Shown: one piece after another, positions 3,304 to 63,676 of the stretch | Layout of the letters: every line of letters starts with the position of its first letter | Position numbering within the stretch: the first letter of the stretch is position 1 | Source: Candidatus Binatus soli | Lineage (GTDB): Bacteria; Desulfobacterota; Binatia; Binatales; Binataceae | Length of the DNA stretch: 64,000 nucleotides | Direction: 5' to 3' | NCBI GenBank assembly: GCA_002479255.1 | Contig: DLMJ01000042.1 | Location: 16,942-80,941 of the forward strand | Program-made: the position numbers and the translations under genes | Notes under the pieces: generated by a model | Database searches by the model: none | The model's input: the letters and a program-made list of their open reading frames with translations, nothing else | What the model was told of the DNA's origin: nothing

Positions 3304-3753
3304 GAACTCCTCCTCACCCAAGTGCGTCTATGCGCGAAGCGAACCCCCTCACTTGCCCCTGAGCGTCAATCGTGCCAAACGGGAACTATCCCACCCAATT
3401 GACGGGAAAATATAGTTATATTTGTAACAAGAATGCAACATCTCCGGGGGGTGAAAAGGCGAGATTTTTTGCCCGGGCTGGCGAGCGTTCTCTCGGTGCA
3501 GCCCGGGCTTTCTGTGGATAAGTGGTGGTGAAATTGCCGCGATTTCCCGGTCAAGCTCGGCTCATATAACGCGTAACGCTCTGAATGCCCGCAAAGACGC
3601 TGTTCGGAGCGGTCGTTTGAGTCGAATTAATACTGGTTTGTGTCGCCCTTATGGTGGCCATGCTTCTGCGCATTGGTCTGTTGCCTGAAACCCGTCTGAC
3701 TTGAAGGCGAATTCCGCGCGAAGCGGAAACCCTGCTAGACTGTTTCGCTCATC

Positions 3754-6017
<2,264 letters not shown>

Positions 6018-48509: not shown

Positions 48510-48585
48510 TGGTGGGCAGGGAGTGAATCGAACACTCGACACAAGGATTTTCAGTCCTTTGCTCTACCGACTGAGCTACCTGCCC
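48510..48585 (-). tRNA. tRNA-Phe (anticodon GAA), CCA encoded
   Basis: Cloverleaf: acceptor GGGCAGG/CCTGCCC, D-arm TAGCTCAGTCGGTAGAGC, anticodon loop CTGAAAA, T-arm GGTTCGATTCC. Confidence 0.9.
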
Positions 48586-51566: not shown

Positions 51567-52271
51567 GTGCTGAACATTGCCCATCGCGGGGCGAGCGGTA
51601 CTTTTCCCGAGAACACGGTGTGCGCGTTTCGCGCCGCGATCGACGCGGGCGCGGACATGTGCGAGCTGGACGTTCAGCTCAGCCGCGACGGCGCGATAGT
51701 GGTGATTCATGATGATACCGTCGAGCGCACGACCGATGGCAAGGGCGAAGTCGCGGAGCTGACGCTCGAGGAGCTCAAGCGATTGGACGCGGGCGCGAAG
51801 TTCAAGGGCGGCCCGTTCAAGGGCGCGCGAATTCCCACGCTTGACGAAGTGTTCGCCGCCACGAGCGGCAAGTGCGGGCTCAATATCGAGCTCAAAGCGG
51901 CCGGCCTCGAGCATCAGGTCGCGCAGATTATGCAGGCGCGCAATGCACTGGGCGATAGCATCGTGTCGAGCTTCGAGTGGGAATATCTGAAAAAAATCCA
52001 GCAGCTGCATTTCAACATTCGCGTTGGTCTGCTTGCCGACGAGAAGCCGGTTGACCTGATGATGAACGCGGTTGCGATGCGCGCGCATGCAATCAATCCG
52101 CGCTGGGACATGGTGACATCCGATCTGTGCAAGGCGGCGCACGAGCGCGGCCTCAAGGTGTACACTTGGACGGTGGATGCGGACGTGCTAATGCGGGCGC
52201 TCATCGAATGCGGGGTTGACGGCATCATGACGAACTATCCCGAGCGGTTGAGGACGGTGGTGGGCGGCTGA
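51567..52271 (+). CDS. Glycerophosphodiester phosphodiesterase (GDPD family)
   Basis: IAHRGASG...PENT and ELDVQLSRDGAIVVIHDDTVERTTDG motifs; GTG start with GGTGGAGG SD. Confidence 0.85.
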   Translation: MLNIAHRGASGTFPENTVCAFRAAIDAGADMCELDVQLSRDGAIVVIHDDTVERTTDGKGEVAELTLEELKRLDAGAKFKGGPFKGARIPTLDEVFAATSGKCGLNIELKAAGLEHQVAQIMQARNALGDSIVSSFEWEYLKKIQQLHFNIRVGLLADEKPVDLMMNAVAMRAHAINPRWDMVTSDLCKAAHERGLKVYTWTVDADVLMRALIECGVDGIMTNYPERLRTVVGG

Positions 52272-54112
52272 TGGGACGTTTCGGCGACGACAAGATCGAG
52301 GAAGTCCGTTCGCGCGCCGATATCGTCGAGATTGTCGGCGCGCACGTGCGTATCCGGCGGGCGGGGCGCAACTTCGTCGGGCTGTGTCCGTTCCACAATG
52401 AGAAGACGCCGTCGTTCTCGGTGAATGCCGAGCGCGGATTCTTTCATTGCTTTGGATGCGGCGCGGGCGGCAGCGTTTTCAATTTCATAATGCGCGTCGA
52501 GGGGTTGACGTTTCCCGAAGCGGTGCGTTCGCTCGCGCGCAAGTACGGCGTGACTTTACCCGAGCACGATCAATCCGGACCGGCGGCAGGCGAGCGCGAA
52601 GCGATGCTCAAAGCCGGCGAGGTCGCCGCCGAATTCTTCGCCCACGTGCTGTGGAACTCGACCGACGGAGCGCTCGCGCGCGACTACCTGAAATCGCGCG
52701 GCATCAGCGTCGAGACGGCGCGCGCGTTCATGATCGGATTTGCGCCGAACCGGCCGGCGTCGCTTGCCAAGGCGCTGGAACGGCGTGGACTGCGCGACGC
52801 GGGCGTGAAAGTCGGGCTGGTCAGGAAAGACGGCGATGGTGCGTACGACATGTTTCGCGCGCGCGTTATGTTCCCGATTCGCGACGCGCAGGGGCGGGTG
52901 CTCGCATTCGGCGGCCGCGTGCTCGATGCGCGCTTGCCCAAGTACATCAACTCGCCCGAATCGCCGCTGTACTCGAAAGCGCGAACTCTGTACGGACTGT
53001 TCGAAGCGCGCCAGGCGATTTCGTTTTCGTTGAATGCGCCGGCGGGAAAAGACCGCGCGATTATCGTCGAGGGTTACTTCGACGTGATTGCGCTGTGGCA
53101 GGCCGGGTTTAAGGAAGCGGTGGCGGGATGCGGCACGGCGCTGACGGTCGAGCAGTTGCGCGCGCTTAGCCGATACACGAAAAATGTAATCGCGTGCTTC
53201 GACGGCGACGCGGCGGGGCGCAAAGCCTCGATGCGGGCGCTGGAGATTTTTTTGCAGGCGGGGCTGCTGGGCCGGGGGATTTTTATTCCGACGGGTTTCG
53301 ATCCCGACACGTTCATTCGCGAGCGCGGCGCGGCCGCATTCGCGGAGTTGGCGGACAAATCCGAGTTGCTGGTCGATTATTTTCTCAGCGAACAGGCCGG
53401 CGAGGCGCGCGGATCGATCGCCGAGCGGGCGCGGGCGGCGCAGCGCGTCGCCGAGATGCTCAAGCTGGTCGGTGATCCGTTTCAGTTCGATTTGCTGGCG
53501 CGTAAGGCCGCCGACCTGCTCTCGATCGGCGAGGAAGTCCTGCGCAAAGAGGCGCGCGGTCCGCAATCACGACCGACGCCGTCGCGGTTTTCGCGCGCGG
53601 GGGTCGCGGCTGGCGCCGAGAACCGGCCCGCCACGCCGGGCGGCGGTGACGCCGGCTCGAAGGCCGAGATCGGACTTGTCGCGATTGCGCTGTTGCATCC
53701 GGAACTGCGCGCCGAGATTGCACAGTCGGGCGCGACGGCGAATTTCGAGGAGGTCCGCCTGGGCGGCGTGCTCGCCGACCTGTGCCGGACCGACGAAGCA
53801 TATACCGCCCTCGAACAATGGACCGCGGAGCGGCTGTCGGCCGAGGAGCAAAGCCGAATCAGCGAGTTTGCGGTCGGTCCGCTGACCGATGACATCGGCG
53901 ACGACACTCAGAAAAATCCCAATGACCTGGAAAAATGCCGGGCGCTTGTCAACGACTACGTCGTCGCGCTCGATCGGCGCCGCCGTGCGCGCGAACTGGG
54001 GCGACTGCGCCAGAGCGCAGCCGAAGTGTCGGCGCGCGAGTCCGAACCTGGCGAGGCGGCGGCGGCTGCGCAGGCCGTGATCGCACACAGACGCGAGGGC
54101 CGCGGCGCGTGA
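52271..54112 (+). CDS. dnaG: DNA primase
   Basis: CPFHNEKTPSFSV zinc-binding motif, TOPRIM domain; ATG overlaps the preceding stop (TGATG). Confidence 0.95.
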   Translation: MGRFGDDKIEEVRSRADIVEIVGAHVRIRRAGRNFVGLCPFHNEKTPSFSVNAERGFFHCFGCGAGGSVFNFIMRVEGLTFPEAVRSLARKYGVTLPEHDQSGPAAGEREAMLKAGEVAAEFFAHVLWNSTDGALARDYLKSRGISVETARAFMIGFAPNRPASLAKALERRGLRDAGVKVGLVRKDGDGAYDMFRARVMFPIRDAQGRVLAFGGRVLDARLPKYINSPESPLYSKARTLYGLFEARQAISFSLNAPAGKDRAIIVEGYFDVIALWQAGFKEAVAGCGTALTVEQLRALSRYTKNVIACFDGDAAGRKASMRALEIFLQAGLLGRGIFIPTGFDPDTFIRERGAAAFAELADKSELLVDYFLSEQAGEARGSIAERARAAQRVAEMLKLVGDPFQFDLLARKAADLLSIGEEVLRKEARGPQSRPTPSRFSRAGVAAGAENRPATPGGGDAGSKAEIGLVAIALLHPELRAEIAQSGATANFEEVRLGGVLADLCRTDEAYTALEQWTAERLSAEEQSRISEFAVGPLTDDIGDDTQKNPNDLEKCRALVNDYVVALDRRRRARELGRLRQSAAEVSARESEPGEAAAAAQAVIAHRREGRGA

Positions 54113-54211: not shown

Positions 54212-54287
54212 GGGCCCATAGCTCAGCCAGGTTCAGAGCTGCCGGCTCATAACCGGCTGGTCCCAGGTTCAAATCCTGGTGGGCCCA
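54212..54287 (+). tRNA. tRNA with CAU anticodon (elongator Met or Ile2/lysidine type); CCA not encoded
   Basis: GGGCCCATAGCTCAGCCAGGTTCAGAGCTGCCGGCTCATAACCGGCTGGTCCCAGGTTCAAATCCTGGTGGGCCCA; acceptor C4:G69 and C5:G68 as in E. coli tRNA-Ile2. Confidence 0.85.
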
Positions 54288-58503: not shown

Positions 58504-59601
58504 TCATCCGCCCGGCGTCGCGGTCGCCGTAGGAGTCGCGCTCAGGGTTGCGGTTGCGGTTGCCGTTCGGGTTGCCGTCGCGGTTGCGGTTGCCGTTGGG
58601 GTTGCAGTCGTAGTTGCCGTCGCGGTCGCGGTAGCGGTTGGGGTTCCCGTTCGGGTTGCCGTCGCGGTAACGGTTACCGTCGCGGTTGCGGTTGTCGTTG
58701 GGGTTGGAGTCGTAGTTTGAGTCGCGGTCGCGGTAGTGGTTGGTGTTGCCGTTCGGGTTGCCGTCGCGGTAGCGGTCGCCGTCGCGGTAGCGGTCGCCGT
58801 CGCGGTAGCGGTTGCAGTCGCGGTAGCGGTTGCCGTTGGGGATGCCGTTGGGGTTGCCGTCACGGTCGGGGTCGGGGTCGCGGTCGGCGCTACGAAGATG
58901 CAGGCGCAGGAGCCTTGTCCGCTACCCAGCCGTGTGATGTCGGCGCACGTTTCCGGCAGTCCGTCATTGAGTTCGTCCGCAGCCGGAACATCGGCTTGGA
59001 ACACGTCTTCGGTGATCTGGGTATTCTGAACGTGAGATGCCCAAGCCATTAGTTCGCTATTGGTGGCCAGTATGAAGCTGGTGCCCGCCGCGGTTGGATC
59101 GCAGCAGACGCCGGTGCTGGGGTCGCAAGCTGCATATGTGGGCTGCGAATCCCCGTATGGAGCTGGAGTGCCATTTGGCAAGGTCGATATGATACGGACC
59201 GAGCCGTCGTGGAGGAGGCCCCCTGTCACCGGGTTCCCCGCCAAACTGCCACTGATGCTGAGGGTCAACAGACCATCCGCGGTCAGCGGGCATCCGCAGC
59301 AGGCCTGCATCGATTGCTCGGTATTGAAGACGTAGATCATCGCGCAGATTTCGCCCTCTCGCGAGGCGGGGGTGGCGCCCGTTGCATCTCCCTCGAGGGG
59401 AGCCGTGATATTGACGGAGGCCTGTCCCCCCTTGGTGTTGGCGTTGCTGAAATAATTCTGCAACTCAGTCCCGTACTCTTCGGACTCTGCCGCCGCCCTG
59501 CCTGACAACGCGAACGTCGCGAGGGCCACGGCCAGCAGAATCATCGTGCTTGTGCTCAGGACTCTCTTACCTAAAGGCGCTAAGGCCCATACACCATTCA
59601 T
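58504..59601 (-). CDS. Secreted Cys-rich protein with a ~115-aa C-terminal (Thr-Ala)n / TATP low-complexity tail
   Basis: Signal peptide, then a ~200-aa domain with 10 Cys (ACCGCP, CDPSTGVCCDP, CACIF), then TATATATA...PGG. Start at ATG 59601 (MNGVW) with GGGAG upstream. Confidence 0.7.
   Translation of the reverse strand: MNGVWALAPLGKRVLSTSTMILLAVALATFALSGRAAAESEEYGTELQNYFSNANTKGGQASVNITAPLEGDATGATPASREGEICAMIYVFNTEQSMQACCGCPLTADGLLTLSISGSLAGNPVTGGLLHDGSVRIISTLPNGTPAPYGDSQPTYAACDPSTGVCCDPTAAGTSFILATNSELMAWASHVQNTQITEDVFQADVPAADELNDGLPETCADITRLGSGQGSCACIFVAPTATPTPTVTATPTASPTATATATATATATATATATATATATATRTATPTTTATATQTTTPTPTTTATATVTVTATATRTGTPTATATATATTTATPTATATATATRTATATATLSATPTATATPGG
58507..58870. 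repeat. Coding hexanucleotide microsatellite (GCSGTM)n, ~360 bp, encoding the (Thr-Ala)n tail on the minus strand
   Basis: gtcgcggtagcggtcgccgtcgcggtagcggt... read directly. Confidence 0.7.
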
Positions 59602-59685
59602 GGTGGAATTTTTTCTCCCTGTCTCGCTGAAAACGGCGTAACCGTTAGCATCCCTCAACTAGGCTTTCAAGCGGCGTTCGGGTTG

Positions 59686-59714
59686 AATATCATGAATACC
59701 CTTATTGCTGTCAA
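59686..59714 (-). promoter_or_regulatory. Candidate sigma-70 promoter for the TA-repeat protein gene (TTGACA-N17-GATATT on the minus strand)
   Basis: Read on the minus strand: tttgacagcaataagggtattcatgatattc; about 78 nt upstream of ATG 59601. Confidence 0.35.
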
Positions 59715-59836
59715 ACGGATGCCAAGATGTAGGGGAAAGTGCCGGCTGGTTTAGCAGTCTGGCGCCGAGTTCTTGCCGGGTTCGGACGAGTTCGGATTTG
59801 TCCAAAAGTGTCCGACCGTCGCTGGCGGTGGCCAAA

Positions 59837-59852
59837 TGGCATCTCGCTTGCA
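59837..59852 (+). promoter_or_regulatory. Candidate sigma-54 (-24/-12) promoter TGGCATctcgcTTGCA, oriented toward the Wza-like gene
   Basis: Matches TGGCAC-N5-TTGCW with the exact GG-to-GC spacing; about 355 nt upstream of ATG 60208. Confidence 0.5.
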
Positions 59853-60207
59853 ATCTCCTGATTTCGATGTTACGTTCGCGCCCGAACTGTCAGCGAACGC
59901 GGGGGAGACTGACAAGAGATTCCGCGTTCTCAAGCTTGGTGCCGCTGGTTCGGCGATGAGTTTTGCACCGACCAGAGTGGTAAAACGTAACCAAAGCTAT
60001 GCCTGAGCTGCATGGCTGGGCGGACGCGTGTGCGCCAATCCCCACGGTTCTTGCGGTCCAGTTGGGCCCGAGATAGCGGCGGTCGCGGAGCGCGATCGAA
60101 CTTTGCGATGGCTGGGGAGATGGGCCGAAAGGTCGCTATTTGCCGAGCCCCGTCTCCGAGACTCGGCGCGCCATTCTCGTCCGGTTCGGTATGCGGGAAA
60201 TACGATC

Positions 60208-62988
60208 ATGAAGATGGGCAATCATTCGATCCGGGTCACTAAGCGGACTGCGAGCCTGTTCGGCGCGTTAGCAACGGTTGCGGCGCTTGTCTGGTTCGCA
60301 AGCACACCTGTAGAGGCTCAGTTTTTGCCGACAGCACCAGCGCCGCCCCCGGGGTCATCCTCGACGAGCGACGAACCGGTAATCGCTCCGCCCGACACGG
60401 CCAGTTCGGGAACAGTCGACAGCGGGGCCGCTCCGGGCGCACCTATATCCCTTTCCCCGGCACAGATTGAGCAGGCACGCTCGATGATTGGAAATGGCGC
60501 CGCTTCGCCGGAGGCGATACAGCGTCTGTGCGCGGGAGTGGCGGCCAAGCACTTGACTGCCGACCAGATAGACTCCACCGCCGCGTCCCTGGGACTATCG
60601 GGCGAGCAAATTGCGGAACTCAAAAACTGTGCATCCTCTGCGAGCACGGCGCCGCCGGAGGCGAGTCCGCGCGCGAACTCTTCAAGCTCAAGTCAGACTC
60701 CGGGAGGTCCGGTCGGCACTGCGGCGAGTGCGAACGGCGAGAGTCTGTCATCGATCGAAGGCTCCTTTCGTTCGCTCGCCGCCCCATCGCAACAGGTGCA
60801 CAATCCGACTCCCTCAAATCTGCGCCAGTTCGGCTACGCCTTGTTCAGCGGCCCGGTCTCAACCTTCGCACCGCTCGGTGACGTGCCGGTTGGTGCGGAT
60901 TACGTATTGGGTCCTGGCGACGAGCTCAATTTGCTGATGTGGGGCCGCGTCAACCGCACCTCGCGTCTCAAGGTCGAGCGGGACGGCAGCGTGCTGATTC
61001 CGGAGATCGGGCCGGTGGAAGTGTCCGGCCTGACTTTCGAGCAAGCGAAGAAGCTTATCGAGAGCCGTGCCGGACAGATCACGGGTGTGCAAGTGGACGT
61101 GACGATGGGTTCGATCCGCACCATTCAGGTGTTCGTGATCGGCAAGGTTGAGCATCCGGGGCTTTTCACGGTCAGCGCGCTGTCGCACGTGTCTAACGCG
61201 TTGGTCGCGTCGGGCGGCATCAGCAAGATCGGCACGCTGCGAAGGGTCGAGCTACGACGGGGCAATCAGCTGATCCGCGAGATCGATCTCTATGACATGC
61301 TCCTGCATGGCAAAACGTCGGCTGACGTGCGCCTGGAGCAGGGCGACGTAATCTTCGTGCCGGTAATCGGCAACGTAGTAGGGGTGACCGGGGATGTGAA
61401 AGACCCCGCCATTTACGAGCTGCGCGGCCAGGAAGATTTGGCAGCGGTGCTCCGTATGGCGGGTGGAGTCGGCGCCTTCGGCTATTCGCAACGCCTGCAG
61501 GTTGAGCGCATCAACAACCACGAACATCGGGTTGACATCGACGTGGCATTGTCGAGCCGGCAGTTCAGCAGTTTCGCGGTGCGCGATGGCGATCTGGTCA
61601 AGGTCTACACCGTGCTGCCGGAGCGCAACAACGTCGTGACACTTAAGGGCAACGCACGACGCCCAGGGGTCTACGAGTGGCGGCCTTATATGCGGGTGTC
61701 GGATTTGATCGGCGAAGGCGAGGGCGTCGCCGATCATACCTATTTCGGCTATGCGCTCATCCGTCGGATCGAGGGTCCCGATCGCCGCGTTCACTATCTG
61801 CCGGTCGACCTCAGCGCCGCGCTGCGCAGCCCCGCTTCGGGACAGGTCAACCTCGTCCTTGAGCCGCGCGACGAACTGACGGTTTATGCAGAGACCGACA
61901 TTGGCGATCTCCCCCATGTGAGCATCACCGGCTCCGTCCGCAAGCCCGGCAGCTACGTGCTGAGCTCGGGGATGCGCGTAAGTGATCTGGTTTATGAGGC
62001 TGGGGGTATCAAGGAGAGCGCCTACCTGAACAAGGCCGAACTCGCGCGCGTTAAAGTCGTCGATGGCACTGCGCGGTTCCTGTACCAGGACATTGCGCTC
62101 GGTAGCGCGCTCGATGGCGTAGGGGGCGAGGATCCGGCGCTGGAGACCGGCGATCACCTTTTCGTCGCCGAAGCGTCCAACTGGCACCAACCGTGGACCG
62201 CGGTGGTCGAGGGAGAAGTAATGCGGCCCGGGCCCTACGTGATTCGCGAAGGTGAGCGGCTGAACTCCTTGCTGGAACGTTGCGGCGGGCTGAGAGCTGA
62301 CGCCTATCTTGAGGCCACGGTATTCGTCCGCGAATCGGTTCAGGACTTGGAGCAGAAGGAGCTGGACGACAGCCGCCGCCGGCTCCAGGCAGACGCCGCG
62401 CGGCTCGCGATGATGCCGAAGCAGCAGTCCGCAAATAACAATACGGCGCAGACCCTTGAGGTAGTGCAGCGGGTGCTCACAGAGACCCAGTCGCAGCAAG
62501 CAACCGGGCGCGTGATTCTGCACTTGCAGTCACTGGACCGACTGCCCTCCTCGCAGGACGACATCGTTCTCCAGCAGGGGGACAAAGTCATAGTTCCCAA
62601 GCGTCCCTCGACCGTGGCGATCCTGGGCCAGGTCTTCAATCCAAGTGCGATCGTCTACGAACGGGGCCGCTCGGTGAGCGACTACCTGCAGCGCTCGGGC
62701 GGACCGACGCAGTGGGCCGACACGGACCACATCATGCTGATCCGCGCCAGCGGCGACATCGTCACCGACCAGAGTATACGCCATAGCGGGAAAGCGGCGT
62801 TGTTTCCGTTGCTGCCGGCGATCTCGGGCGGCCTGATGGGCGTCGAGGTCGAACGCGGCGACACGATCTATGTGCCGGAGACCCTGCGGTACGTTGACGA
62901 GATGCAGGAAGCCAAGGACATCACGCAGATCATCGTCAACGCCGCGACCTCGCTCGCGGTGCTTGGAATTCTGGCGACCAATCTTTAA
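60208..62988 (+). CDS. Large polysaccharide export outer-membrane protein (Wza/KpsD family: Poly_export domain plus multiple SLBB beta-grasp repeats), 926 aa
   Basis: Signal peptide; GADYVLGPGDELNLLMWG Poly_export motif; repeated GDVIFVP / GDTIYVP SLBB-type segments. Start at ATG 60208; the track's upstream extension is rejected. Confidence 0.85.
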   Translation: MKMGNHSIRVTKRTASLFGALATVAALVWFASTPVEAQFLPTAPAPPPGSSSTSDEPVIAPPDTASSGTVDSGAAPGAPISLSPAQIEQARSMIGNGAASPEAIQRLCAGVAAKHLTADQIDSTAASLGLSGEQIAELKNCASSASTAPPEASPRANSSSSSQTPGGPVGTAASANGESLSSIEGSFRSLAAPSQQVHNPTPSNLRQFGYALFSGPVSTFAPLGDVPVGADYVLGPGDELNLLMWGRVNRTSRLKVERDGSVLIPEIGPVEVSGLTFEQAKKLIESRAGQITGVQVDVTMGSIRTIQVFVIGKVEHPGLFTVSALSHVSNALVASGGISKIGTLRRVELRRGNQLIREIDLYDMLLHGKTSADVRLEQGDVIFVPVIGNVVGVTGDVKDPAIYELRGQEDLAAVLRMAGGVGAFGYSQRLQVERINNHEHRVDIDVALSSRQFSSFAVRDGDLVKVYTVLPERNNVVTLKGNARRPGVYEWRPYMRVSDLIGEGEGVADHTYFGYALIRRIEGPDRRVHYLPVDLSAALRSPASGQVNLVLEPRDELTVYAETDIGDLPHVSITGSVRKPGSYVLSSGMRVSDLVYEAGGIKESAYLNKAELARVKVVDGTARFLYQDIALGSALDGVGGEDPALETGDHLFVAEASNWHQPWTAVVEGEVMRPGPYVIREGERLNSLLERCGGLRADAYLEATVFVRESVQDLEQKELDDSRRRLQADAARLAMMPKQQSANNNTAQTLEVVQRVLTETQSQQATGRVILHLQSLDRLPSSQDDIVLQQGDKVIVPKRPSTVAILGQVFNPSAIVYERGRSVSDYLQRSGGPTQWADTDHIMLIRASGDIVTDQSIRHSGKAALFPLLPAISGGLMGVEVERGDTIYVPETLRYVDEMQEAKDITQIIVNAATSLAVLGILATNL

Positions 62989-62995
62989 GGCGAGC

Positions 62996-63676
62996 ATGAG
63001 TCGCACTGCGATTATTCTGGTTGCGGCGTTTGGCCTGATGGCGATGGCCGGTACGGCCTACTGCGGCGCCTTACAAACCACTGTCGCTGGAAGCGACGGC
63101 CCGATCGACGATCGTGCGCTGATGGTCGCCGTGGGCGCGATGTTCCGGATCGATCCCGACTTGCTCGCGGCCATCGCGGTGGCCGAATCGGCCGGACGCG
63201 CCGACGCGGTTTCGCCGCGCGGCGCAATTGGGATTATGCAGTTGATGCCCGCAACCGCACAGAAATTTCGTGTCGACGATCCTTACGATCCGATCGATAG
63301 CGCGTTGGGCGCGGCCCGCTTCATCGACTTCATCCGTCTGCGTCAGGCTGCAGCTCTGCCCGACGGCAGCCTCGCCGATCTGCTGGCGGCGTACAACGCC
63401 GGCGAAGGCGCCGTCGAGCGCTACGGCGGTGTGCCGCCCTATGACGAGACCCGCGAATACGTCCGGCGGGTCTTGTGGCTGTATCTGGCGGGCATGCCAC
63501 CTCCGCGGGACGGGCCGAAAGTATCAGTATCAAAGATCACGCATAGGAAAGTCGCGCCGCATGTGCTGGTAAAGCGCGATGCCGATGCTGATGCACGCGC
63601 GCGCCTGGCCGAGCTCCGTCATGAGCGTGCCATGGCTCAATCGGCGCCACCCGCAACATCATTCGTCCAACGCTGA
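62996..63676 (+). CDS. Lytic transglycosylase (SLT domain) with a signal peptide
   Basis: AESAGRADAVSPRGAIGIMQLMPATA catalytic motif; AAGG SD 5 nt upstream. Confidence 0.8.
   Translation: MSRTAIILVAAFGLMAMAGTAYCGALQTTVAGSDGPIDDRALMVAVGAMFRIDPDLLAAIAVAESAGRADAVSPRGAIGIMQLMPATAQKFRVDDPYDPIDSALGAARFIDFIRLRQAAALPDGSLADLLAAYNAGEGAVERYGGVPPYDETREYVRRVLWLYLAGMPPPRDGPKVSVSKITHRKVAPHVLVKRDADADARARLAELRHERAMAQSAPPATSFVQR

What the first reader, a model, noticed from the sequence alone, without database searches (positions are those of the whole stretch)
59659..60207. 550-bp divergent control region with a near-perfect sigma-54 promoter aimed at the Wza-like exporter gene
TGGCATctcgcTTGCA (59837-59852) matches the -24/-12 consensus TGGCAC-N5-TTGCW with exact spacing. 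It points toward the polysaccharide export gene and implies a bacterial enhancer-binding protein controls export. A sigma-70-like TTGACA-N17-GATATT on the opposite strand (59686-59714) could drive the TA-repeat protein gene. The long leader (~355 nt) before the Wza-like ATG leaves room for further regulation.
Basis: seen in the sequence. Interest (0 to 1): 0.55.

Follow-up and report, generated by a model that had tools for sequence, protein, structure and literature searches.

The report
Exopolysaccharide operon promoter and antitermination leader
The flagged motif is a real, perfect sigma-54-type promoter match in front of a polysaccharide-export operon of an uncultured Binataceae bacterium, but relatives conserve it only patchily, whereas they do conserve an RfaH/ops-like antitermination signal further down the long leader.

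Summary
TGGCATctcgcTTGCA lies at 59837-59852 (+) and is the only such match in 64 kb (0.10 expected). The opposite-strand TTGACA-N17-GATATT is also present and is conserved in relatives.

The window comes from a Candidatus Binataceae bacterium. The gene downstream starts a wza-slt-wzi-...-wzx polysaccharide operon of at least 12.8 kb.

Support for sigma-54 is mixed. Correct GG-N10-GC spacing survives only in the closest relatives. Sister lineages have 1-2 extra bases or no GG, although the flanking CTTGCAAT...GATGnTA block is invariant. That block also reads as a sigma-70 -35 plus extended -10. Three unalignable lineages carry their own sigma-54-like motif upstream of the operon (combined p about 0.02 without the window). 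No enhancer-binding protein or rpoN is in reach.

The stronger result lies in the leader. The 12-mer GGCGGACGCGTG (60019-60030) is conserved in every orthologous locus down to about 50% Wza identity. It matches E. coli ops GGCGGTAGCGTG at 10 of 12 positions. Related Binataceae loci carry GGCGGTAGC or GGCGGACGC in the same place, next to an RfaH-like NusG paralog gene.

Best reading: initiation is possibly sigma-54-gated (about 0.55), and elongation is controlled by an RfaH-like factor loaded at an ops variant (about 0.75).

The parts
59837..59852 (+). Sigma-54-type -24/-12 motif TGGCAT-N5-TTGCA. The predicted start is near 59863.
   Evidence: 15.0 bits on an approximate PWM, p=0.007 against a Markov null of the same intergenic region. 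The spacing is kept in L010 (GGGCAT) and L009/L066 (GGGGAT). It is broken or lost in L074, L014, L008, L044, L011 and L061.
59848..59876 (+). Alternative sigma-70-type promoter: -35 TTGCAA (59848-59853), 17-nt spacer, extended -10 TG-t-TACGTT (59868-59876). The predicted start is near 59883.
   Evidence: Read directly from the sequence. CTTGCAAT and GATGnTA are kept in all 10 close relatives, and the 'n' after TG varies (T or C). The match is weak by consensus (4/6 and 3/6) and the standard scan did not call it.
59796..60045 (+). Strongly conserved non-coding block covering the promoter region and the first ~190 nt of the leader.
   Evidence: Most positions from the promoter block to just past the ops-like element are invariant across five loci whose Wza proteins are only 75-100% identical. 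1-2 nt indels exclude coding on either strand. There is no Rfam match, the fold z-score is 0.24, and the covariation term is -0.3.
60019..60030 (+). ops-like element GGCGGACGCGTG on the non-template (coding) strand. The extended conserved core ATGGCTGGGCGGACGCGTG spans 60012-60030.
   Evidence: It is present upstream of the operon in all 13 distinct window-type loci, down to ~50% Wza identity. It matches E. coli ops12 GGCGGTAGCGTG at 10/12 positions. Related loci have GGCGGTAGC or GGCGGACGC in the same position next to RfaH-like genes. The chance of the 9-mer per leader is 0.7-2.8%.
60208..62988 (+). Wza-like outer-membrane polysaccharide export gene (926 aa; Poly_export plus five SLBB stretches). 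It is the first gene of the operon, followed by SLT (62996-63676) and Wzi (from 63706, cut by the window end).
59686..59714 (-). Sigma-70-type promoter TTGACA-N17-GATATT for the divergent TA/TP-repeat protein gene.
   Evidence: It is identical in L010. In L009 the -35 is kept and the -10 reads GATATG.
58504..59604 (-). Divergent gene for a secreted Cys-rich protein with a (TA)n/(TP)n tail.
   Evidence: It has no Pfam or NCBIfam hit. Its N-domain is homologous to the upstream neighbours in relatives.

Best explanation
The 600-bp intergenic region is the control region of a Wzx/Wzy-type exopolysaccharide or capsule operon (wza-slt-wzi-initiating transferase-...-wzx, at least 12.8 kb) in an uncultured Candidatus Binataceae bacterium from peat. 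It has two regulatory layers.

(1) Initiation. A promoter block at 59837-59876 contains a perfect sigma-54 -24/-12 motif. In this lineage it probably gives enhancer-binding-protein-dependent initiation near 59863. This is inferred, with probability about 0.55. A sigma-70-like -35/extended -10 overlaps the same block.

(2) Elongation. About 155 nt into a ~345-nt leader, the non-template strand carries GGCGGACGCGTG, a variant of the ops element. By analogy with E. coli RfaH, RNA polymerase would pause at T11/G12. The exposed strand would form the small C3:G8-closed hairpin. An RfaH-like NusG paralog would load there and keep transcription of the long operon processive. This is inferred from sequence and from association in relatives, with probability about 0.75.

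In relatives the paralog gene heads the operon. In this organism it is not within 60 kb upstream or 12.8 kb downstream, so it would have to act in trans.
For: Organism and operon.

Sigma-54 motif: it is unique and perfect in the window. Independent lineages show sigma-54-like motifs as the best hit of their operon-upstream regions: L007 p=0.011, L012 p=0.031, L129 p=0.043. The Fisher combined p is 0.003 for 10 lineages and about 0.02 without the window.

ops-like element: it is the only sequence shared by all window-type leaders down to ~50% Wza identity. RfaH-like genes sit at the head of polysaccharide loci in 5 of 5 contexts examined, with one more about 5 kb away. Their best family match is RfaH: TIGR01955 E=1.4e-28, and PDB RfaH 3e-24 against NusG 2e-14. 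All five RfaH-linked loci were found through proteins, not through the DNA pattern, and all five carry GGCGGTAGC or GGCGGACGC on the coding strand of the leader. The chance per locus is 0.7-2.6%. The positions E. coli RfaH needs (G2, C3:G8, G4, G5, T11-G12) are kept. Paralogs at TA-type loci keep T72-R73 of the T6 pocket, while those at AC-type loci have M-A or M-Q.
Against: The sigma-54 spacing or GG is lost in L074, L014 and the L008 clade, although the neighbouring bases stay invariant. No EBP, rpoN or conserved upstream activator site was found. No RfaH-like gene or remnant was found in the window organism's available 77 kb. Positions 6 and 7 of the ops core differ from E. coli ops, and in E. 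coli A7T abolishes RfaH action. L126 and L127 have no recognisable ops-like element in the sequence held. The sigma-54 PWM and the E. coli RfaH and NusG sequences used were written from memory. No transcription data exist.
Confidence: 0.55

Rival explanations
1. The working promoter is a sigma-70-type promoter: -35 TTGCAA 59848-53, 17-nt spacer, TG-extended -10 TACGTT 59871-76. The invariant TTGCA is conserved because it is the -35 element. The upstream TGGCAT is then a lineage-specific coincidence that completes a sigma-54 look-alike.
For: CTTGCAAT and GATGnTA are invariant in all 10 close relatives, while the -24 hexamer and its distance vary (0, +1, +2, or no GG). The variable base falls exactly at the 'n' of TGn. 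RfaH-linked relatives have good sigma-70-like promoters ahead of the operon, read by eye: L125 TTGACA-N17-CACAAT and a TTGACA in L129. No EBP or rpoN is in reach.
Against: Both hexamers are weak (4/6 and 3/6) and the consensus scan did not call them. Given a fixed TTGCA, a TGGCAY at the exact spacing has a chance of only about 5e-4. Three unalignable lineages also have sigma-54-like motifs upstream of the operon. The whole block is so conserved that conservation of the -35/-10 hexamers is not specific evidence.
Confidence: 0.35
2. The conserved 19-nt core is not an RfaH-type loading site. It could instead be the start of a regulatory upstream ORF (ATG GCN GGG CGG ACG CGT = MAGRTR), a binding site for an unrelated protein, or a plain pause site.
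For: The only variable base of the 19-mer is the wobble position of the Ala codon. The uORF stop overlaps the wza ATG in L008 (ATGA) and L012 (TAATG). No RfaH-like gene is known in this organism.
Against: The uORF length runs from 10 to 76 codons with no conservation after residue 7 and no consistent coupling. The reading frame and the peptide are not kept in L129, L136, L125, L128 or L133, which share only the GGCGGnnGC core. The core co-occurs with RfaH-like genes.
Confidence: 0.12
3. The ~190-nt ultra-conserved leader (about 59860-60045) is a structured cis-regulatory RNA, such as a riboswitch or attenuator, and that RNA is the main regulator. This does not exclude the other readings.
For: Conservation far exceeds that of the adjacent coding sequence. 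Perfect 8-bp arms GAACGCGG/CCGCGTTC lie at 59895-59929, and a hairpin followed by a T-run lies at 59940-59965.
Against: There is no Rfam hit even at E=10. The fold energy is no better than shuffles (z=0.24). The covariation term is -0.3, with one compensatory pair among 49. L074 deletes half of the 8-bp stem, and the T-run is lost in the L008 clade. Only the ops-like core survives in distant lineages.
Confidence: 0.15

Closest known systems
E. coli RfaH / ops (JUMPStart) operon-polarity suppression
   Same: A 12-nt element sits on the non-template strand in the 5' leader of a long polysaccharide operon. It matches ops at 10/12 positions and keeps the pause-determining G2 and T11-G12 and the C3:G8 pair. 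The associated NusG paralogs in relatives match RfaH better than NusG, UpxY or LoaP.
   Different: Positions 6-7 are AC instead of TA, the bases read by the RfaH pocket. The phylum is Binatota, not Proteobacteria. The paralogs score below NCBIfam's RfaH equivalog cut-off (99.9 against 144.5 bits). Pocket residues H20, R23 and Q24 are not conserved, and R73 is replaced in paralogs at AC-type loci. In relatives the paralog gene heads its target operon, whereas E. coli rfaH is unlinked. Function is untested.
Bacteroides UpxY and Myxococcus TaA (operon-encoded NusG paralogs)
   Same: In Binataceae relatives the NusG paralog is encoded as the first gene of the polysaccharide operon it presumably controls. 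This matches the arrangement described for UpxY and TaA (PMC7593976).
   Different: The recruitment signals of UpxY and TaA are reported as unknown. Here a clear ops-type sequence is present. The UpxY profile fits much less well than the RfaH profile (E 1.7e-13 against 1.4e-28). The window organism itself lacks the adjacent paralog gene.
Sigma-54/EBP-dependent exopolysaccharide promoters (for example Burkholderia bep with BerB, Vibrio vps with RpoN; the general link is in Francke et al. 2011, PMC3162934)
   Same: A TGGCAC-N5-TTGCW type motif lies in front of a polysaccharide export and biosynthesis operon.
   Different: No EBP gene, activator site or rpoN has been identified. The motif is not conserved across the clade. 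Combination with an RfaH/ops-type leader is not, to my knowledge, a described arrangement.

Membership tests
Sigma-54 (RpoN)-dependent promoter | GG at -24 and GC at -12 with fixed spacing (TGGCAC-N5-TTGCW) | tested here: met
   The site matches 11/11 consensus positions at 59837-59852 and is unique in the window.
Sigma-54 (RpoN)-dependent promoter | Intergenic position, oriented toward a downstream gene | tested here: met
   The motif starts 371 nt upstream of the wza-like ATG on the same strand.
Sigma-54 (RpoN)-dependent promoter | Motif and spacing maintained in orthologous promoters | tested here: inconclusive
   It is kept in L010, L009 and L066. It is broken in L074 (+1) and L014 (+2) and absent in L008, L044, L011 and L061. 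Independent sigma-54-like motifs occur in L012, L007 and L129.
Sigma-54 (RpoN)-dependent promoter | Enhancer-binding protein (AAA+ with GAFTGA) and an upstream activator site | tested here: not met
   There is no GAFTGA or Walker A EBP signature in the window or in about 250 kb of related loci. No conserved palindrome lies upstream. An EBP could be encoded elsewhere in the genome, so this only shows none is local.
Sigma-54 (RpoN)-dependent promoter | rpoN present in the genome; transcription start about 12 nt downstream of the GC; RpoN dependence | not testable with these tools
   Only 64 kb plus 12.8 kb of the genome are accessible. There is no RpoN-box in them. No transcript data are available.
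RfaH/ops antitermination | ops-type 12-mer on the non-template strand in the leader of a long operon | tested here: met
   GGCGGACGCGTG at 60019-60030 matches ops12 at 10/12 positions. It is conserved in all 13 window-type leaders. The TA or AC version is in 8 of 10 lineages, with a chance of 0.7-2.8% each.
RfaH/ops antitermination | Identity of the bases read by RfaH (G4, G5, T6, A7) | tested here: not met
   G4 and G5 are kept, but T6 is A and A7 is C. This is therefore not a canonical E. coli-type ops. Relatives L125, L128 and L133 do have the canonical GGCGGTAG.
RfaH/ops antitermination | RfaH-like NusG paralog encoded in the genome | tested here: inconclusive
   It is present next to the orthologous operon in L125, L128, L129, L133 and L136. 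It was not found in the window or 12.8 kb downstream.
RfaH/ops antitermination | Autoinhibited alpha-hairpin C-terminal domain that refolds to a KOW barrel | tested here: inconclusive
   The AlphaFold2 model of the relative P0192 has a confident N-terminal domain (pLDDT about 85-95) but a low-confidence C-terminal domain (37-72) with mixed strand and helix.
RfaH/ops antitermination | Pausing at U11 and factor-dependent read-through | not testable with these tools
   This needs in vitro transcription or genetics.
Known structured RNA families (Rfam 15) | Covariance-model match | tested here: not met
   There is no hit at gathering score or at E up to 10.

The most novel reading that the evidence does not exclude
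Binataceae may use a second specificity class of the RfaH/ops system. In this class the ops hairpin loop reads GGAC instead of GGTA, and the cognate NusG paralogs (subfamily KY[ML]xGV) have replaced the T72-R73 part of the thymine pocket. In the window lineage this paralog would act in trans on an operon whose initiation is gated separately by sigma-54. The result would be an exopolysaccharide operon needing both an enhancer-binding protein and a dedicated elongation factor.
Probability: 0.3. Interest if true: 0.65.

Novelty: new variant of a known kind. Interest (0 to 1): 0.45.

Why it matters
Recruitment signals for NusG paralogs outside the enterobacterial RfaH/ops pair are largely unknown (PMC7593976). 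Here an uncultured phylum supplies natural ops variants (TA and AC types) paired with two paralog subfamilies that differ at a pocket position. That gives a testable case of co-evolving DNA-hairpin and factor specificity. For Binatota biology it points to how a major cell-surface polysaccharide locus is switched on. For annotation, it shows that a perfect sigma-54 consensus match can sit in a block conserved for other reasons, and should be checked against orthologous promoters before an EBP regulon is inferred.

Tried and rejected
- Rfam search at gathering score and at E up to 10 found nothing in the region.
- Single-sequence folding (z=0.24) and RNAalifold on 9 leaders (covariation -0.3) gave no evidence for a structured RNA.
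- The uORF MAGRTR idea was rejected. Lengths run from 10 to 76 codons with no conserved tail, and the frame is lost in L129 and L136.
- The metagenome scan with the 19-mer gave 112 hits. Only about 17 lie upstream of Wza-like genes. The rest lie mostly in coding sequence or unrelated contexts, such as an IS transposase, so the 19-mer is not a general element.
- A search for a NusG/RfaH paralog or its remnant in the window and the window-clade loci found nothing.
- A search for EBP or RpoN signatures found nothing.
- A search for a shared activator site upstream of the sigma-54-like motifs found only short shared words: GCCGA(G)TTCTTGCCG at about -73/-75 in the window and L007, and TCTGGCGCCG in the window and L012. 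These are compatible with chance.
- The listing of cluster members was tried to place an RfaH-like gene on the window's contig. It returned no accessions.
- The AlphaFold2 prediction of the paralog's C-terminal domain had too little confidence to classify.
- A literature search on Binatota found no information on sigma-54 or polysaccharide regulation.

Full report
**Observation.** The sequence TGGCATctcgcTTGCA is at 59837-59852 on the + strand. It is the only match to TGGCAY-N5-TTGCW on either strand of the window, with 0.10 expected from shuffles. On an 11-position consensus count it scores 11/11. In 1.7 Mb of fetched loci the only 11/11 hit was this same site in the same-species copy L001. 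The opposite-strand TTGACA-N17-GATATT (59714..59686) is also real and is the only sigma-70-like hit in the region. The downstream gene starts at ATG 60208 and encodes 926 aa with Poly_export plus five SLBB stretches. The upstream gene on the minus strand encodes a secreted Cys-rich protein with a (TA)n/(TP)n tail and has no family match.

**Context.** The identical Wza-like protein occurs on many peat metagenome contigs. Those contigs show the operon continuing as SLT, Wzi, an initiating sugar transferase, a methyltransferase, two transketolase-like subunits, two aminotransferases and a Wzx flippase, at least 12.8 kb on one strand. Genome relatives are named Candidatus Binataceae/Binatia. I assembled 13 distinct orthologous upstream regions with Wza identity from 100% down to about 50%. 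I later added seven more distant or RfaH-linked loci.

**Is the sigma-54 motif conserved?** Ten close relatives (75-100% Wza identity) share a non-coding block from about 59796 to 60045 that is better conserved than the coding sequence.
- CTTGCAAT, which holds the -12 element, is invariant in this block.
- The -24 hexamer and its distance are not. The window has TGGCAT, L010 has GGGCAT and L009/L066 have GGGGAT, all with correct spacing.
- L074 has AGGCAT with one extra base. L014 has TGGAAA with two extra bases. L008, L044, L011 and L061 have no GG.
- Spacing in sigma-54 promoters is strict (established knowledge), so those promoters would be dead.

The loci that keep GG all have the divergent TA-repeat gene upstream, including L074, whose spacing is broken. 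Most loci that lost it have same-strand genes upstream and could be read through; L014 keeps a GG at wrong spacing. The invariant TTGCAA can also be read as a -35 element. It is followed after 17 nt by a conserved TG-extended -10 (TGtTACGTT at 59868-59876). The only variable base near it is the 'n' of TGn.

Some evidence points the other way. Three lineages whose leaders cannot be aligned to the window carry their own sigma-54-like motif upstream of the operon: L012 CGGCATGGATTCTGCT, L007/L038 TGGCATGTTTCATGCG and L129 TGGCCTGTGCCTTGCT. I scored these with an approximate PWM written from memory of the Barrios consensus, against a first-order Markov null of each intergenic region. The best-hit p-values are 0.007 (window), 0.011, 0.031 and 0.043, and six other lineages are not significant. 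The Fisher combined p is 0.003, or about 0.02 when the pre-selected window is left out. No GAFTGA-type enhancer-binding protein and no RpoN box occur in the window or in about 250 kb of related loci. No conserved activator site was found. I therefore rate a working sigma-54 promoter in this organism at about 0.55 and the sigma-70-type alternative at about 0.35.

**What is conserved in the leader?** The only sequence shared by all window-type leaders, including the distant L012 and L007/L038, is ATGGCnGGGCGGACGCGTG at window 60012-60030. L012 and L007 were found through the protein, so this conservation was not selected for.
- A metagenome scan with the 19-mer returned 112 loci. Only about 17 are upstream of Wza-like genes. 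The others lie mostly in coding sequence or unrelated contexts.
- The inner 12-mer GGCGGACGCGTG matches E. coli ops12 GGCGGTAGCGTG at 10 of 12 positions.
- According to Zuber et al. 2018 (PMC5995543), ops needs the C3:G8 pair, G4, G5 and A7. T6 flips into a pocket formed by H20, R23, Q24 and R73. T11-G12 make the pause.
- The window element keeps G2, C3, G4, G5, G8, T11 and G12. It changes T6 to A and A7 to C.

**Link to RfaH-like proteins.** More distant Wza orthologue loci turned out to encode a NusG-family protein at the head of the operon. These are L125 (168 aa, immediately upstream of wza), L128 (149 aa, then a 186-aa secreted protein, then wza) and L126 (about 5 kb upstream).
- The best NCBIfam match of the L125 protein is RfaH (TIGR01955, E=1.4e-28, full length, below the equivalog cut-off). 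UpxY, NusG and LoaP follow.
- A profile of 50 homologues hits PDB RfaH at 3e-24 and NusG at 2e-14.
- At least 161 homologues exist, many labelled RfaH and several from Candidatus Binataceae.
- Three further family members, looked up by sequence, also sit at the head of polysaccharide loci: L129-132 (rfaH-like, wza, slt, wzi, wzz), L133-135 (rfaH-like, wzz, wzx, glycosyltransferases) and L136-138 (rfaH-like, 189-aa gene, wza, slt, wzi).

Each of these five loci carries an ops-type sequence on the coding strand of its leader:

| Locus | Sequence | Type |
|---|---|---|
| L125 | GGCGGTAGCGCG | TA |
| L128 | GGCGGTAGCCCG | TA |
| L133 | GGCGGTAGCCCA | TA |
| L129 | GGCGGACGCATG | AC |
| L136 | GGCGGACGCGCA | AC |

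The chance of the 9-mer GGCGG(TA|AC)GC in each set of intergenic regions is 0.7-2.8%, and 8 of 10 lineages have it. The window's core is therefore the AC version of an ops-type element that accompanies RfaH-like genes in this family.

In a small sample, paralogs at TA-type loci keep T72-R73 (L125, L133), while those at AC-type loci have M-A or M-Q. The 120 listed homologues split into RY[TA]RGVR and KY[ML]xGV groups. This is a hint of co-evolved specificity, not a demonstration.

**Gaps.**
- The window organism's own paralog was not found in the 64-kb window, in the 12.8 kb downstream, or as a decayed remnant in the leader. I could not reach the rest of the genome. It would have to act in trans, as E. 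coli RfaH does.
- The AlphaFold2 model of a relative has a confident N-terminal domain but an unclassifiable C-terminal domain.
- The reason for the extreme conservation of the first ~190 nt of the leader remains unexplained. There is no Rfam match, no unusual stability and no covariation, and indels exclude coding.
- The uORF reading of the core was rejected.

**Divergent promoter.** TTGACA-N17-GATATT is identical in L010. In L009 the -35 is kept and the -10 reads GATATG. Both lie within a conserved 5' block of the TA-repeat gene.

**Comparison and novelty.** RfaH-type proteins have been reported by HMM in 23 of 117 phyla, 95% of them in Proteobacteria, sometimes next to polysaccharide genes. 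Recruitment signals of operon-encoded NusG paralogs are described as unknown (PMC7593976). The present case works like RfaH/ops. It fails strict membership on the two bases read by the E. coli factor and on the equivalog score. It is best filed as a new variant of a known kind. The sigma-54 motif taken alone is an ordinary kind of feature whose function here is unproven.

**Verdict.** The more solid and more interesting feature of the region is the ops-like antitermination element at 60019-60030.

Noticed in passing
window 58504-58900 (- strand); L001-L005: The (TA)n/(TP)n tail of the secreted Cys-rich protein differs in length between populations that share an identical Wza protein. Gene calls give 340-365 aa, and the central TA run varies by several units. 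This looks like a contingency-type repeat polymorphism or an assembly effect.
   Followed up: partly
window 59777-59796; L009 about 5070-5500; L010 about 3470-3765: The window has a tandem direct repeat CGGGTTCGGA/CGAGTTCGGA exactly where L009 and L010 carry 430-500 extra bases between the TA-repeat promoter block and the wza promoter block. This suggests a deletion between short repeats, or insertions in the relatives.
   Followed up: partly
window 59764-59778; L007 3111-3124: GCCGA(G)TTCTTGCCG lies 73-75 nt upstream of the sigma-54-like motif in both the window and the unalignable L007 leader. It could be an activator site or chance (BLAST E 0.46 before allowing for position).
   Followed up: partly
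proteins P0121-P0240; alignment A2: Binataceae RfaH-like proteins fall into two groups at the position matching E. coli T72-R73: RY[TA]RGVR and KY[ML]xGV. In five loci this tracks the ops type of the adjacent leader (TA or AC).
   Followed up: partly
L127 509-733: There is weak translated similarity (E 4.6e-4) to an RfaH-like protein just upstream of wza in a locus with no called paralog and no ops-like element. It may be a decayed paralog gene.
   Followed up: no
L128 1499-2059; L126 4201-4779: A conserved secreted Gly/Thr-rich protein of 186-192 aa with no family match (77% identical between the two loci) sits directly upstream of wza, between the rfaH-like gene and wza in L128. L007/L038 and L136 have unrelated small secreted proteins in the same slot.
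   Followed up: partly
L011 5359-5865; L001 9629-9799; L010 3564-3716: Metagenome gene calls of 168, 56 and 50 aa lie in the wza upstream non-coding region; the L011 and L001 calls overlap the conserved block. The L011 and L001 calls are probably spurious, because 1-2 nt indels between relatives break any frame in the conserved block.
   Followed up: yes
window 59940-59965: A terminator-like hairpin GCCGctggttCGGC followed by GATGAGTTTTG lies inside the leader. The hairpin is conserved, but the T-run is lost in the L008 clade, so it is not a conserved intrinsic terminator.
   Followed up: partly
window 48513-48585 (-) and 54212-54287 (+): There are two tRNA genes. A primase gene (dnaG, 52271-54112) lies between them and the polysaccharide locus.
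   Followed up: no
L011 1049-2695 and 2984-5389; L008; L014; L044: In the clade that lost the -24 element, the upstream neighbours are same-strand genes. These include a homologue of the TA-repeat protein's N-domain and NHL-repeat proteins that share a duplicated 250-aa C-terminal module.
   Followed up: partly
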